Below the pieces are notes generated by a model. The model was not told the origin of the DNA. It searched no databases and worked only from the letters and a program-made list of their open reading frames with translations. From Escherichia phage Qbeta, in sequence record FJ483844.1: 4,219 nt of DNA; one strand, written 5' to 3'. Below are positions 1 through 4,123 of this stretch, piece after piece; the stretch's first letter is position 1, and the number at the start of each line of letters is the position of its first letter. A program made the position numbers and the translations under genes.

Positions 1-61
1 GGGGGACCCCCCTTAGGGGGTCTCCTCACACAGCAGTATTTCACTGAGTATAAGAGGACAT
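1..61 (+). other. 5-prime untranslated leader with G/C-rich terminal hairpin
   Basis: Seen in sequence: window begins GGGGGACCCCCCTTAGGGGG. C8-C12 can pair with G16-G20 around a TTA loop; G1-G5 with the C run is an alternative pairing. A 5-prime GGG start is characteristic of Qbeta-type genomes that Qbeta replicase copies. No ORF before position 62. Confidence 0.85.
52..58 (+). promoter_or_regulatory. Shine-Dalgarno-like ribosome binding site for the A2 cistron
   Basis: Seen in sequence: AAGAGGA at 52-58, with the GAGG core ending 4 nt before the ATG at 62-64. Confidence 0.65.
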
Positions 62-1324
62 ATGCCTAAATTACCGCGTGGTCTGCGTTTCGGAGCCGAT
101 AATGAAATTCTTAATGATTTTCAGGAGCTCTGGTTTCCAGATCTCTTTATCGAATCTTCCGACACGCACCCGTGGTACACACTGAAAGGTCGTGTGTTGA
201 ACGCTCATTTAGATGATCGTCTACCTAATGTAGGCGGTCGTCAAATAAGGCGTACTCCGCACCGTGCTACCGTCCCGATTGCCTCTTCAGGCCTTCGTCC
301 GGTAACAACCGTTCAGTATGATCCTACAGCACTGTCGTTCTTATTGAACGCCCGTGTTGATTGGGATTTCGGTGATGGTGATAGTGCGGACCTTGTCATT
401 AATGACTTTTTGTTCCGCACTTTCGCACCTAAGGAGTTCGATTTCTCGAACTCCTTGGCTCCTCGCTATACCCAGGCCTTCTCCGCTTTTAATGCCAAGT
501 ATGGCACTATGATCGGCGAAGGGCTCGAGACTATAAAATATCTCGGGCTTTTACTGCGCAGACTGCGTGAGGGTTTCCGTGCTGTTAAGCACGGCGATTT
601 ACGCGCTCTTCGTAGGGTTATCCAGTCTTACCACAAGGGTAAATGGAAACCGACTACTGCTGGTAATCTCTGGCTTGAATTTCGTTATGGCCTTATGCCC
701 CTCTTCTATGACATCAGAGATGTCATGTTAGATTGGCAGAATCGTCACGATAAGATTCAACGCCTCCTTCGGTTTTCTGTCGGTCATGGCGAGGATTATG
801 TTGTCGAATTTGACAACTTATATCCCGCCGTAGCTTACTTTAAACTGAAAGGTGAGATTACTCTCGAACGCCGTCATCGTCATGGTATATCTTACGCTAA
901 TCGCGAAGGATATGCTGTTTTCGATAACGGTTCCCTTCGGCCTGTGTCCGATTGGAAGGAGCTTGCCACCGCGTTCATCAATCCTCAAGAAGTTGCCTGG
1001 GAGTTAACTCCCTACAGCTTTGTTGTTGATTGGTTTTTGAACGTCGGTGACATACTCGCTCAACAAGGTCAACTATATCATAATATCGATATTGTAGACG
1101 GCTTCGACAGACGTGACATACGGTTCAAATCGTTTACCATAAAAGGTGAGCGAAATGGACAGCCTGTTAACGTTTCTGCGGACCTGTCTGCTGTTGATAC
1201 ATTTTATAGTCGACTCCATACGAGCAGTATTCCGTTCGCTACACTAGATCTCGATACTACCTTTAGTTCGTTTAAACACGTTCTCGATAGTATCTTTTTA
1301 TTAACCCAACGCATTAAGCGCTGA
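62..1324 (+). CDS. A2: Maturation protein A2 (420 aa); in Qbeta-type phages also the lysis effector that inhibits MurA
   Basis: ORF track 62..1324, ATG start, TGA stop at 1322-1324. N-terminus MPKLPRGLRFGADNEILNDFQELWFPD and overall length match what I recall of the Qbeta A2 protein; first cistron after the 5-prime leader, as in all ssRNA coliphages. The lysis function is established knowledge for Qbeta A2, not shown by the sequence. Confidence 0.95.
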   Translation: MPKLPRGLRFGADNEILNDFQELWFPDLFIESSDTHPWYTLKGRVLNAHLDDRLPNVGGRQIRRTPHRATVPIASSGLRPVTTVQYDPTALSFLLNARVDWDFGDGDSADLVINDFLFRTFAPKEFDFSNSLAPRYTQAFSAFNAKYGTMIGEGLETIKYLGLLLRRLREGFRAVKHGDLRALRRVIQSYHKGKWKPTTAGNLWLEFRYGLMPLFYDIRDVMLDWQNRHDKIQRLLRFSVGHGEDYVVEFDNLYPAVAYFKLKGEITLERRHRHGISYANREGYAVFDNGSLRPVSDWKELATAFINPQEVAWELTPYSFVVDWFLNVGDILAQQGQLYHNIDIVDGFDRRDIRFKSFTIKGERNGQPVNVSADLSAVDTFYSRLHTSSIPFATLDLDTTFSSFKHVLDSIFLLTQRIKR

Positions 1325-1345: not shown

Positions 1346-1747
1346 ATGGCAAAATTAGAGACTGTTACTTTAAGTAACATTGGGAAAGATGGACAAAAAA
1401 CTCTGAACCTCAACCCACGTGGGGTAAATCCCACCAACGGTGTTGCCTCGCTTTCAGAAGCGGGTGCAGTTCCTGCATTGGAGAAGCGTGTTACCATTTC
1501 GGTATCTCAGCCTTCTCGTAATCGTAAGAACTACAAGGTTCAGGTTAAAATCCAAAACCCAACCGCTTGTTCTGCAAACGGTTCTTGTGACCCATCCGTT
1601 ACTCGCCAGGCATATGCTGACGTGACTTTTTCGTTCACGCAGTATAGTACCGATGAGGAACGAGCTTTTGTTCGTACAGAGCTTGCTGCTCTGCTCGCTG
1701 ATCCTCTGCTGATCGATGCTATCGATCAGCTGAACCCAGCGTATTGA
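1346..1747 (+). CDS. cp: Major coat (capsid) protein, 133 codons including the initiator Met
   Basis: ATG at 1346-1348 (the track starts 2 codons earlier at a TTG, 1340). Product MAKLETVTL...IDAIDQLNPAY ends at TGA 1745-1747. Sequence is near-identical to Qbeta coat as recalled, with a few substitutions. Second cistron, as expected. Confidence 0.95.
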   Translation: MAKLETVTLSNIGKDGQKTLNLNPRGVNPTNGVASLSEAGAVPALEKRVTISVSQPSRNRKNYKVQVKIQNPTACSANGSCDPSVTRQAYADVTFSFTQYSTDEERAFVRTELAALLADPLLIDAIDQLNPAY

Positions 1748-2335
1748 ACGTTGCTCATTGCCGGTGGTGGCTCAGGGGAAAACCCCGATCCGGTTGATCC
1801 GGATCCACCGATTGATCCGCCGCCAGGGTCAGGTAGCTATACCTGTCCTTTCGCAATTTGGTCATTAGAGGAGGTTTATGAGCCTCCTACCAGTGACCGA
1901 CCGTGGCCTATCTATTATGCTGTCGAACTCCAACCTCGTGATTTTGATGTTGCCCTTGATGATCTCTTGGGTAACACTAAATGGCGAGACTGGGATTCAC
2001 GGCTTAGTTATACCACGTTCCGCGGTTGCCGTGGCAATGGTTATATTGACCTTGATGCGACTTATCTTGCTACTGACCAAGCGATGCTTGATCAGAAGTA
2101 CGATATTCGCACGGGCAAGAAACCCGGTGCCTTCGGTAACATCGAACAATTCATCTATCTTAAGTCGATAAATGCCTATTGTTCTCTTAGCGATATTGCG
2201 GCCTATCACGCCGATGGTGTGATAGTTGGCTTTTGGCGCGATCCATCTAGTGGTGGTGCCATACCGTTTGACTTCACAGAGTTTGATAAGACTAAATGTC
2301 CAATTCAAGCTGTGATAGTCGTTCCTCGTGCTTAG
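1346..2335 (+). CDS. A1: A1 read-through minor capsid protein (coat plus C-terminal extension, 329 aa) made by suppression of the coat UGA
   Basis: Seen in sequence: the frame stays open from the coat UGA (1745-1747) for 195 further codons to a tandem stop TAG-TAA (2333-2338). The extension begins TLLIAGGGSGENPDPVDPDPPIDPPPG, matching the Qbeta A1 read-through domain as recalled. UGA read-through by tRNA-Trp in Qbeta is established knowledge. Confidence 0.9.
1745..1747 (+). promoter_or_regulatory. Leaky UGA stop codon of the coat gene (programmed read-through site)
   Basis: TGA at 1745-1747 followed by A (context UGA-A), then an in-frame 195-codon extension with no intervening start or ribosome binding site. 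Established mechanism in Qbeta; efficiency cannot be judged from sequence. Confidence 0.85.
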
Positions 2336-2340
2336 TAACT

Positions 2341-2345
2341 AAGGA
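2341..2345 (+). promoter_or_regulatory. Shine-Dalgarno sequence of the replicase cistron
   Basis: Seen in sequence: AAGGA at 2341-2345, 8 nt upstream of the replicase ATG at 2354. It overlaps the upstream in-frame ATG at 2345, which argues against 2345 as the true start. Confidence 0.7.
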
Positions 2346-2349
2346 TGAA

Positions 2350-2369
2350 ATGCATGTCTAAGACAGCAT
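2350..2369 (+). promoter_or_regulatory. Coat-protein translational operator hairpin enclosing the replicase start codon
   Basis: Seen in sequence: ATGCATGTCTAAGACAGCAT folds into an 8-bp stem (A2350-T2369, T2351-A2368, G2352-C2367, C2353-G2366, T2355-A2365, G2356-C2364, T2357-A2363, C2358-G2362) with bulged A2354 and a 3-nt loop TAA (2359-2361). The replicase AUG (2354-2356) lies within the stem. This matches the established Qbeta operator architecture (8-bp stem, bulged A, 3-nt loop). Confidence 0.8.
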
Positions 2370-4123
2370 CCTCGCGTAACTCTCTCAGCGCACAATTGCG
2401 CCGAGCCGCGAACACAAGAATTGAGGTCGAAGGTAACCTCGCACTTTCCATTGCCAACGATTTAATGTTGGCTTATGGTCAATCGCCATTTAATTCCGAG
2501 TCCGAGTGTATTTCACTCGGTCCGAAATTCGACGAAACCCCGGACAACTTTAGGATAAATTATCTTAAAGCCGAGATCATGTCGAAGTATGACGATTTCA
2601 GCCTAGGTATTGATACCGAAGCTGCTGCATGGGAGAAGTTCCTAGCAGCAGAGGCTGAATGTGCTTTAACGAACGCTCGTCTCTATAGGCCTAACTACAG
2701 TGAGGATTTCAATTTCTCACTGGGCGAGTCATGTATTCACATGGCTCGTAGAAAAATAGTTAAGCTAATAGGAGACGCGCCGTCCGTTGAGGGTATGCTG
2801 CGTCACTGCCGTTTTTCCGGTGGTGCTACAACAACGAATAACCGTTCATACGGTCATCCGTCCTTCAAGTTTGCGCTTCCACAAGCGTGTACGCCTCGGG
2901 CTTTGAAGTATGTTCTGGCTCTTAGAGCCTCTACGCACTTCGATATCAGAGTTTCTGATATTAGCCCTTTTAATAAAGCAGTTACTGTACCAAAGAACAG
3001 TAAAACCGATCGCTGTATCGCTATCGAACCCGGTTGGAATATGTTTTTTCAACTAGGTATCGGTGGCATCTTACGCGACCGGCTGCGTTGCTGGGGTATC
3101 GATCTGAATGATCAGACGATAAACCAGCGTCGCGCTCACGAAGGCTCTGTTACTAATAACTTAGCAACAGTTGATCTCTCAGCGGCAAGCGATTCTATAT
3201 CTCTTGCTCTCTGCGAGCTCTTGTTGCCTCCAGGGTGGTTTGAAGTCCTTATGGACCTTCGATCACCTAAGGGGCGATTGCCTAACGGTAGTGTCGTTAC
3301 TTATGAGAAGATTTCTTCCATGGGTAACGGTTACACATTCGAACTCGAGTCGCTTATTTTTGCTTCTCTTGCTCGTTCCGTTTGTGAGATACTGGACTTA
3401 GACTCATCTGAGGTCACTGTCTACGGAGACGACATTATTTTGCCGTCCTGTGCAGTCCCTGCTCTTCAGGAAGTCTTCAAGTATGTTGGTTTTACTACCA
3501 ATACTAAAAAGACCTTTTCCGAAGGGCCGTTCAGAGAGTCGTGCGGTAAGCACTACTATTCTGGCGTAGATGTTACTCCCTTTTACATACGCCGCCGCAT
3601 AGTGAGTCCTGCCGATTTAATATTGGTTTTGAATAACCTATATCGGTGGGCCACGATTGACGGCGTATGGGATCCTAGGGCCCATTCCGTGTACCTCAAG
3701 TATCGTAAGTTGCTGCCTAAACAGCTGCAGCGTAATACTATACCTGATGGTTACGGTGATGGCGCCCTCGTCGGATCGGTCCTGATCAATCCATTCGCGA
3801 AAAACCGCGGGTGGATCCGGTATGTACCGGTGATCATTGACCACACAAGGGACCGAGAGCGCACTGAGCCGGGGTCATATCTCTATGATCTCTTCTCTCG
3901 CTGTTTCTCGGAAAGTAACGATGGGTTGCCCCTAAGGGGTCCGTCGAGTTGCGATTCTATATATCGGTTTGCCGTTGACCAACTTATATGTAAGAGCAAT
4001 CCTACAAAAGTAAGCAGATCTACTGGGAAATTTGATATACAGTATATCGCGTGCAGTAGCCGTGTTCTGGCACCCTACGGGGTTTTCCAGGGCACGAAGG
4101 TTATGCCTCTACACGAGGCATAA
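2354..4123 (+). CDS. rep: RNA-dependent RNA polymerase, replicase beta subunit (589 aa)
   Basis: ATG at 2354 (track starts 3 codons earlier at ATG 2345), stop TAA at 4121-4123. N-terminus MSKTASSRNSLSAQLRRAANTRIEVEG matches Qbeta replicase as recalled. Canonical RdRp catalytic YGDD motif encoded at 3422-3433; motif-A-like VDLSAASD upstream. Third cistron as expected. Confidence 0.95.
   Translation: MSKTASSRNSLSAQLRRAANTRIEVEGNLALSIANDLMLAYGQSPFNSESECISLGPKFDETPDNFRINYLKAEIMSKYDDFSLGIDTEAAAWEKFLAAEAECALTNARLYRPNYSEDFNFSLGESCIHMARRKIVKLIGDAPSVEGMLRHCRFSGGATTTNNRSYGHPSFKFALPQACTPRALKYVLALRASTHFDIRVSDISPFNKAVTVPKNSKTDRCIAIEPGWNMFFQLGIGGILRDRLRCWGIDLNDQTINQRRAHEGSVTNNLATVDLSAASDSISLALCELLLPPGWFEVLMDLRSPKGRLPNGSVVTYEKISSMGNGYTFELESLIFASLARSVCEILDLDSSEVTVYGDDIILPSCAVPALQEVFKYVGFTTNTKKTFSEGPFRESCGKHYYSGVDVTPFYIRRRIVSPADLILVLNNLYRWATIDGVWDPRAHSVYLKYRKLLPKQLQRNTIPDGYGDGALVGSVLINPFAKNRGWIRYVPVIIDHTRDRERTEPGSYLYDLFSRCFSESNDGLPLRGPSSCDSIYRFAVDQLICKSNPTKVSRSTGKFDIQYIACSSRVLAPYGVFQGTKVMPLHEA
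2975..2981 (+). other. Internal partner site of a candidate long-range pseudoknot with the 3-prime-terminal hairpin loop
   Basis: Seen in sequence: AAAGCAG (2975-2981) is the exact reverse complement of CTGCTTT (4197-4203) in the loop of the 3-prime-terminal hairpin. A possible eighth pair is U2974-G4204 (G-U). Qbeta has a known long-range pseudoknot between its 3-prime hairpin loop and a site roughly 1.2 kb upstream that is needed for replication. Confidence 0.65.

What the first reader, a model, noticed from the sequence alone, without database searches (positions are those of the whole stretch)
62..1324. No dedicated lysis gene: lysis is expected to reside in the A2 maturation protein
MS2-type phages carry a small lysis ORF overlapping the coat/replicase junction in the +1 frame. 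Here the junction region (about 1700-2400) is occupied by the A1 read-through domain and the replicase start, and no such ATG-initiated junction ORF with proper spacing exists. This fits the Qbeta strategy in which A2 alone causes lysis by inhibiting MurA, the first committed step of peptidoglycan synthesis. The A2 protein here has some substitutions relative to the Qbeta sequence as I recall it.
Basis: established knowledge. Interest (0 to 1): 0.45.

Follow-up and report, generated by a model that had tools for sequence, protein, structure and literature searches.

The report
Qβ-type phage lyses through A2

Summary
The window is a complete Qβ-type (Qubevirus durum) genome, 93.3% identical to strain VK and about 92% to Qβ. 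ORF 62..1324 is a full-length A2 maturation protein, 95.7% identical to Qβ A2, the chain solved in complex with MurA. It is under strong purifying selection (dN/dS 0.06-0.10). All 18 differences from Qβ fall at positions that vary among natural A2 proteins, and the C-terminal residues needed for lysis are intact. No ORF spans the coat-stop/replicase-start junction as MS2 L does. ORF 1878..2171 (97 aa, +1 frame, AGGAGG upstream, hydrophobic) passes all three published sgl (single-gene lysis) screening criteria. I tested it and reject it as a gene. Its ATG is missing in Qβ and four other strains. The frame is truncated in TW18, M11 and MX1 and absent in group IV. Synonymous change beneath it is not suppressed, and its SD is locked in a hairpin. 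In addition, 44% of synonymous-shuffled genomes hold an equivalent candidate. MurA-contact residues could not be checked, and lysis itself is inferred.

The parts
62..1324 (+). A2 maturation/lysis protein gene (420 aa)
   Evidence: ORF. Pfam Phage_mat-A, E 3.7e-137. Residues 1-420 align to 1-420 of PDB 5vlz/5vm7/7lhd Qβ A2, E 3.6e-282. 95.7% identical to Qβ, with 18 substitutions. dN/dS 0.06-0.10. Model TM-score 0.83 to 5mnt.
52..58 (+). Shine-Dalgarno-like AAGAGGA, 3 nt upstream of the A2 ATG
   Evidence: Read directly from the sequence. Its function was not tested.
1346..1747 (+). Coat protein gene ending in the leaky UGA at 1745-1747
   Evidence: Pfam Levi_coat, E 4.1e-63. Same layout as the annotated relatives.
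1748..2335 (+). A1 read-through extension, which fills the space where MS2 has its coat/replicase junction
   Evidence: Pfam Read-through domain PF16814, E 1.7e-95.
2354..4123 (+). Replicase beta-subunit gene
   Evidence: Pfam RNA_replicase_B, E 1.7e-217. The start is placed by the annotations of the relatives.
1878..2171 (+). 97-aa ATG ORF in the +1 frame inside A1: a lysis-gene look-alike judged non-functional
   Evidence: passes the three screening criteria. (ATG absent in five strains; frame truncated in TW18, M11, MX1 and group IV). (start position varies). (length and full-candidate status are expected by chance). (no suppression of dS; dN/dS 2.1-3.9 in its own frame). (no family match).
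1869..1888 (+). Hairpin AGGAGGUU/AGCCUCCU with loop UAUG, which sequesters the SD-like motif and start codon of the 1878 ORF
   Evidence: strand folding: -12.7 kcal/mol for 36 nt (z -2.87) and -25.3 kcal/mol for 81 nt (z -3.0). The same stem is predicted in Qβ.

Best explanation
The window is a Qβ-type ssRNA coliphage genome with no dedicated lysis gene. The 420-aa product of 62..1324 is the single-copy maturation protein. It also acts as the lysis protein: once enough free A2 accumulates, it binds host MurA through its exposed β-region and blocks the first committed step of peptidoglycan synthesis, and the growing cell then lyses at the septum. Shown here: gene identity, integrity, near-identity to the characterised Qβ protein, purifying selection, and the absence of any credible alternative lysis ORF. 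Inferred from Qβ: MurA binding and lysis by this variant.
For: Full-length genome match to Qβ strains at 92-93%. Same four-gene layout as the annotated relatives, some of which are annotated 'maturation-lysis protein A2'. A2 aligns end to end with the Qβ A2 chain of PDB 5vlz/5vm7, E 3.6e-282, at 95.7% identity. The 18 substitutions avoid every invariant or nearly invariant column of a 14-sequence A2 alignment; F172, H177 and I418 occur in other natural A2 proteins. A2 dN/dS is 0.06-0.10. The predicted fold matches 5mnt with TM-score 0.83. T415, Q416 and R417, needed for A2 lysis, are unchanged, and V418, changed to Ile here, can be deleted without loss of lysis (PMC12856241). The literature states that Qβ and SP have no dedicated lysis gene and that A2 lyses by binding MurA in its β-region. 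The only alternative candidate ORF was rejected.
Against: The A2 residues that contact MurA could not be obtained, so it is unknown whether N105D, a window-unique change in a β-hairpin turn, or the other β-region changes (V62I, V69A, A89T, N110D) touch the interface. The exact A2 sequence is not on record anywhere, so no isolate with this protein is documented to form plaques. PMC10614894 notes that the original isolate Q was a poorly lytic, chronic phage, so lytic strength can vary within this lineage.
Confidence: 0.93

Rival explanations
1. ORF 1878..2171 encodes a small membrane protein that acts as a second or emerging lysis protein in the window/VK/BR12 lineage, embedded out of frame in A1 in the way sgl genes are embedded in other ssRNA phages.
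For: It is the only alternative-frame ORF in the window that passes all three published sgl screening criteria: at least 25 codons, an SD-like AGGAGG, and a hydrophobic TMD-like stretch with KD19 2.51 (criteria in PMC7693330). The same 97-aa ATG ORF is present in VK. De novo sgl genes arise readily in these phages.
Against: The ATG is ACG in Qβ, TW18, HL4-9, FrMerlot and FrSangria. The frame stops after 42 codons in TW18 and M11, after 63 in MX1, and after 18-46 in SP, NL95 and FI. Start positions differ among strains. In synonymous shuffles the mean longest +1 ATG ORF is 91 codons, and 37% reach 97 or more. 44% of shuffles contain a full candidate with a TMD-like stretch and an SD. dS of the A1 codons beneath it is 0.32-0.48, the highest in the genome, although every A1 wobble change alters the ORF's second codon position. 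Its own-frame dN/dS is 2.1-3.9, and its amino-acid identity between strains is 71-79%. The SD and AUG are buried in a -12.7 kcal/mol hairpin. It has no Pfam or PHROG match. Its hydrophobicity follows from 38.8% T at codon position 3.
Confidence: 0.03
2. A2 is the only lysis factor, but the substitutions in this strain weaken MurA binding, so the phage lyses late or poorly and behaves like a chronic phage.
For: Four residues are unique to this A2 among eight strains (N105D, Y172F, R177H, H309Q). N105D lies in the turn at 103-107 of a β-hairpin in the region that binds MurA. PMC10614894 reports that the ancestor of Qβ was poorly lytic and that lysis strength depends on A2 affinity and expression.
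Against: All the changes are at positions that vary freely among natural A2 proteins, and three of the four unique ones are in or next to the α-region. The remaining 14 of the 18 changes from Qβ each occur in at least one of the named natural strains compared. There is no sign of relaxed constraint (dN/dS 0.06-0.10).
Confidence: 0.04

Closest known systems
Qβ A2 maturation/lysis protein (type I Sgl, MurA inhibitor; PDB 5MNT, 5VLZ, 5VM7)
   Same: Same length (420 aa), same gene position and same genome layout. 95.7% identity end to end, the same Pfam family, and a predicted fold with TM-score 0.83 to 5mnt.
   Different: 18 substitutions. Four of them (N105D, Y172F, R177H, H309Q) are not seen in the seven other Qβ-like strains compared. 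The function of this variant is untested.
Qβ strain VK (FJ483843) and other natural Qubevirus durum isolates (BR12, TW18, HL4-9, FrMerlot, FrSangria)
   Same: Collinear over the whole genome at 92-93% nucleotide identity with identical gene order. VK also carries the 97-aa ATG ORF.
   Different: The window has one extra base (T1327) in the A2-coat spacer, so all three genes share one frame. No deposited record exceeds 93.3% identity.
MS2 L lysis gene (type II Sgl)
   Same: ORF 1878..2171 resembles it only superficially: a small, hydrophobic, out-of-frame ORF downstream of the coat gene.
   Different: L spans the coat end and the replicase start. Nothing in the window does. The look-alike ORF lies inside A1 and is neither conserved nor under selection.

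Membership tests
Qβ-type A2 (dual maturation protein / MurA-inhibiting Sgl) | Full-length levivirus maturation-protein domain encoded as the first gene of the genome | tested here: met
   PF03863, E 3.7e-137, covering residues 36-420. The gene is at 62..1324, upstream of coat.
Qβ-type A2 (dual maturation protein / MurA-inhibiting Sgl) | Close sequence relationship to the Qβ A2 chain solved bound to MurA | tested here: met
   Residues 1-420 align to 1-420 of 5vlz/5vm7, E 3.6e-282. 402 of 420 residues are identical. It falls in the same 90% cluster as Qβ A2.
Qβ-type A2 (dual maturation protein / MurA-inhibiting Sgl) | Two-region fold (β-region plus α-region) | tested here: met
   AF2 model with pLDDT 73.8: β-strands at 29-120, 237-293 and 341-386; helices at 129-235, 318-335 and 403-419. 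TM-score 0.83 to 5mnt. The model's confidence is moderate.
Qβ-type A2 (dual maturation protein / MurA-inhibiting Sgl) | C-terminal segment through R417 intact (required for A2-mediated lysis) | tested here: met
   The window ends ...LLTQRIKR. T415, Q416 and R417 are unchanged, and the only change is V418I. Deleting V418-R420 does not abolish lysis (PMC12856241).
Qβ-type A2 (dual maturation protein / MurA-inhibiting Sgl) | Conservation of the A2 residues that contact MurA | not testable with these tools
   No coordinates for 5VM7 are available. Cui 2017 and Reed 2012/2013 are not held. Indirect evidence only: the substitutions lie at variable positions.
Qβ-type A2 (dual maturation protein / MurA-inhibiting Sgl) | Expression of A2 alone lyses E. 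coli, and lysis is suppressed through MurA | not testable with these tools
   This needs an experiment. It is established for Qβ (Winter & Gold 1983 and Bernhardt 2001, as cited).
Qubevirus genome organisation without a lysis cistron | A2, coat, A1 by UGA read-through, and replicase, with no further conserved ORF | tested here: met
   No alternative-frame ORF is conserved across group III and group IV.
MS2-type L lysis gene | Out-of-frame ORF overlapping the coat 3' end and the replicase 5' start | tested here: not met
   No + strand ORF of 20 aa or more crosses 1745-1747. Only a hydrophilic 21-aa ORF (2296..2361) crosses the A1/replicase gap.
Embedded sgl gene (Chamakura 2020 sense) | At least 25 codons, an SD and a predicted TMD | tested here: met
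   ORF 1878..2171 only. However, 44% of synonymous-shuffled genomes also contain such a candidate, so this feature does not discriminate.
Embedded sgl gene (Chamakura 2020 sense) | Start, stop, length and sequence conserved among close relatives, with constraint on the overlapped gene | tested here: not met
   ATG absent in 5 of the 7 Qβ-like strains compared. The frame is truncated in TW18, M11 and MX1 and absent in group IV. dS is not reduced, and own-frame dN/dS is 2.1-3.9.

The most novel reading that the evidence does not exclude
The 97-aa +1-frame ORF at 1878..2171, which has an ATG plus AGGAGG only in the window, VK and BR12 among the Qβ-like strains compared, is a newly arising membrane protein. 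It would be a proto-sgl caught at birth inside A1, adding to or modulating A2-driven lysis.
Probability: 0.03. Interest if true: 0.6.

Novelty: already known. Interest (0 to 1): 0.08.

Why it matters
It matters little beyond correct annotation. A2 as the MurA-inhibiting 'protein antibiotic' of Qβ has been textbook knowledge since 1983-2001, and this genome is another strain of the same species. The useful outcome is methodological. A 97-codon ORF with a start codon, a ribosome-binding motif and hydrophobic segments, passing every published screen for embedded lysis genes, turns out to be what the +1 frame of a genome with T-rich third codon positions yields by chance in nearly half of null genomes. 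Such screens therefore need conservation and dS tests before a candidate is believed.

Tried and rejected
1. I tried to obtain the A2-MurA contact residues. Cui 2017 (PMC5676892), Reed 2012 (PMC4631118), Reed 2013 (PMC3709820), Chamakura & Young 2019 (PMC6416421) and Karnik & Billeter 1983 (PMC555316) are not held. A full-text search for MurA plus L138Q returned only unrelated papers. The held reviews say only that the β-region, and its tip, contacts MurA.

2. An exact-sequence look-up of the A2 protein to find the source of the window found nothing on record.

3. My first script for A2 substitutions failed on alignment gaps; it was redone from the annotated coordinates.

4. My first ORF-conservation table was wrong downstream of about 1340. 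A one-base spacer difference made my frame filter discard true counterparts. One search is the corrected table.

5. I considered alternative-frame ORFs 567..731 (54 aa), 3171..3401 (76 aa) and 3657..3785 (42 aa) as candidates. I rejected them because they have GTG or TTG starts, no SD or only a weak GGTG motif, no credible family match, and are absent from M11/MX1 and/or group IV.

6. I did not pursue minus-strand ORFs (for example 1997..2308, 103 aa). By established knowledge of Leviviricetes, the minus strand of these phages is a replication template and is not translated.

7. I recall from memory that por mutations of Qβ A2 map to L28, D52 and E125. Those residues are present here, but I could not verify the claim in a held paper, so I give it no weight.

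Full report
WHAT THE WINDOW IS. The 4219 bases are a complete Qβ-type ssRNA phage genome. Megablast against 50,697 phage records gives full-length collinear matches to Escherichia phage Qβ strains. The best is strain VK (FJ483843) at 93.3%, and the laboratory Qβ reference (AB971354) matches at 92.2%. No record is closer, and the exact A2 protein is not on record in the large protein collection. This is therefore an undeposited strain of Qubevirus durum, not a new kind of phage.

The ORF list and Pfam scans give the canonical layout:
- A2 at 62..1324 (Phage_mat-A, E 3.7e-137).
- Coat at 1346..1747 (Levi_coat), ending in UGA.
- The A1 read-through extension to 2335 (Read-through domain, E 1.7e-95).
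- Replicase at 2354..4123 (RNA_replicase_B, E 1.7e-217).

CHECK OF THE OBSERVATION. The ORF coordinates 62..1324 are exact. The statement that 1700-2400 is filled by the A1 extension and the replicase start is correct. No + strand ORF crosses the coat stop codon. Only a hydrophilic 21-aa ORF (2296..2361) bridges the A1 stop and the replicase start, so nothing resembles MS2 L in position.

It is preceded by GAGGAGG, with AGGAGG ending 3 nt before the ATG. It contains strongly hydrophobic stretches: a 19-residue Kyte-Doolittle (KD19) maximum of 2.51 and a 27-residue run without charged residues. It is the only alternative-frame ORF in the window that meets all three criteria used by Chamakura et al. 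2020 to nominate embedded single-gene lysis (sgl) candidates: at least 25 codons, an SD and a TMD (PMC7693330).

TESTING THE 1878 ORF.
1. Conservation. The ATG exists only where the overlapped A1 tyrosine codon is TAT (window, VK, BR12, M11, MX1). It is ACG in Qβ, TW18, HL4-9, FrMerlot and FrSangria. The frame stops after 42 codons in TW18 and M11, after 63 in MX1, and after 18-46 in SP, NL95 and FI. The corrected table of positional counterparts shows one shared stop codon among the Qβ-like strains and M11/MX1, but starts and lengths that wander: 97 ATG, 84 ATG, 137 TTG, 46 GTG, 75 TTG, 31 and 20, with none in group IV.
2. Chance. In 2,000 genomes with synonymous codons shuffled within each gene, the longest +1-frame ATG ORF averages 91 codons, and 37% reach 97 or more. 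In a further 1,000 shuffles, 44% contain at least one +1 ATG ORF of 25 codons or more with KD19 of at least 2.0 and an SD-like motif upstream. The hydrophobicity has a simple cause. T makes up 38.8% of third codon positions, and these are the second positions of the +1 frame, where T specifies Leu, Ile, Val, Phe or Met.
3. Selection. Every wobble change in A1 alters the second codon position of this ORF, so a functional ORF should depress dS in A1. Instead, the A1 codons beneath it have dS of 0.32-0.48 against four strains. That is the highest of any region; A2 is 0.29-0.34, replicase 0.28-0.32 and coat 0.10-0.18. Read in its own frame, the ORF shows dN/dS of 2.1-3.9 and only 69-77 identical residues of 97.
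4. Expression. The AGGAGG and the AUG sit in a hairpin (1869-1876 paired with 1881-1888, loop UAUG) of -12.7 kcal/mol locally, and -25.3 kcal/mol in an 81-nt context, both lower than shuffled controls. This is weaker evidence, because the MS2 L start is also structurally closed (my own knowledge).
5. Similarity. There is no Pfam or PHROG match even at E of 1 or less.

Together these results show that the ORF is a by-product of composition, not a gene. I put the residual probability that it has a lysis role at about 3%.

THE A2 PROTEIN. It aligns residue for residue, 1-420, with the Qβ A2 chain of PDB 5vlz/5vm7/7lhd (E 3.6e-282); 5VM7 is the MurA-A2 complex. Against Qβ it has 18 substitutions (95.7% identity). 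Against seven natural Qβ-like strains it has 18-24, of which four are unique to the window: N105D, Y172F, R177H and H309Q.

In an alignment with 13 relatives found in a 5.8-billion-protein search, none of the 18 positions is invariant or nearly invariant. F172, H177, I418 and most of the other residues occur naturally elsewhere, and positions 105 and 309 are hypervariable. dN/dS for A2 is 0.06-0.10, so the gene is under strong purifying selection.

An AlphaFold model built on that alignment has moderate confidence (pLDDT 73.8). It reproduces the α-plus-β two-region architecture and matches the Qβ A2 crystal structure 5mnt with TM-score 0.83. In that model, Y172F and R177H lie in the long helices, H309Q lies in a low-confidence linker, and N105D lies in the 103-107 turn between two β-strands.

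A 2026 mutational study shows that A2 expressed alone lyses cells. It shows that the C-terminal region through R417 is needed, and that V418 to R420 can be deleted (PMC12856241). Here T415, Q416 and R417 are unchanged, and the only change in that region is the conservative V418I.

MECHANISM. Shown here: the gene is intact, orthologous, constrained and structurally conserved, and no rival lysis ORF survives testing. Taken from the literature on Qβ: groups III and IV (Qβ, SP) lack a dedicated lysis gene. A2 causes lysis when expressed alone. It binds MurA through its β-region when MurA is in the closed, UDP-GlcNAc-bound state, and so blocks the first committed step of peptidoglycan synthesis. 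Inferred: this variant does the same. My confidence is 0.93.

I therefore cannot exclude that N105D or the other β-region changes (V62I, V69A, A89T, N110D) modulate affinity. A minor rival, at about 4%, is that they weaken lysis. It is worth noting because the ancestor of laboratory Qβ was reportedly a poorly lytic, chronic phage (PMC10614894).

COMPARISON AND NOVELTY. In what it works like and in membership alike, this is Qβ A2. Every defining feature I could test was met, and the two I could not test (contact residues, and lysis with MurA rescue) need coordinates or experiments. It is not an MS2-type arrangement. The finding restates established knowledge for a new strain of a known species, so I rate it 'already known' with low interest (0.08).

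VERDICT.

Noticed in passing
window 1327: There is a single extra T in the 21-nt A2-coat spacer (TGAAATCTTT, against TGAAACTTT in all seven Qβ-like strains compared). It places A2, coat/A1 and replicase in the same reading frame in this genome. The spacer lies close to the coat ribosome-binding region.
   Followed up: partly
window 1869-1888 (extended stem 1858-1900): A stable hairpin forms from AGGAGGUU and AGCCUCCU inside the A1 coding region (-12.7 kcal/mol locally, -25.3 kcal/mol over 81 nt, z about -3). The same stem is predicted in Qβ. Both arms are also constrained by the A1 residues LEEVYEPP, so conservation of structure and of protein cannot be separated here.
   Followed up: partly
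window 2226-2315: A 29-aa TTG ORF in the +1 frame at the 3' end of A1 has positional counterparts in all Qβ-like strains and in group IV (SP, NL95, FI; 28 aa), but not in M11 or MX1. It is not hydrophobic (KD19 1.09) and has only a weak GGTG motif upstream. It is probably a by-product of the highly conserved A1 C-terminus.
   Followed up: partly
whole window: All nine alternative-frame ATG ORFs of 25 codons or more are in the +1 frame, and the +2 frame has none longer than 21 codons. Synonymous shuffles reproduce this asymmetry (mean longest ATG ORF 91 against 29 codons), which goes with 38.8% T at third codon positions.
   Followed up: yes
whole window; A2 62-1324: No deposited phage record exceeds 93.3% identity, and the exact A2 protein is not on record in the roughly 15-billion-protein collection. 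The strain appears to be undeposited and roughly equidistant (92-93%) from all known Qβ lineages.
   Followed up: partly
window 1877-2171 (A1 codons): This stretch of A1 has the highest synonymous divergence in the genome (dS 0.32-0.48, against 0.10-0.18 in coat). Coat has the lowest dS, which may reflect RNA-structure or packaging constraints on the coat gene.
   Followed up: no
window 2345-2353: Two in-frame ATGs (2345 and 2354; MKCMSKT...) precede the replicase body. Annotated relatives place the start at the codon matching 2354. The upstream ATG overlaps the region just upstream of the replicase start.
   Followed up: no
A2 protein (62-1321), PHROGs hit: PHROG family phrog_4286, which A2 matches at E 2.5e-142, is labelled 'head maturation protease'. 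That label is misleading for levivirus maturation proteins, which are not proteases.
   Followed up: no
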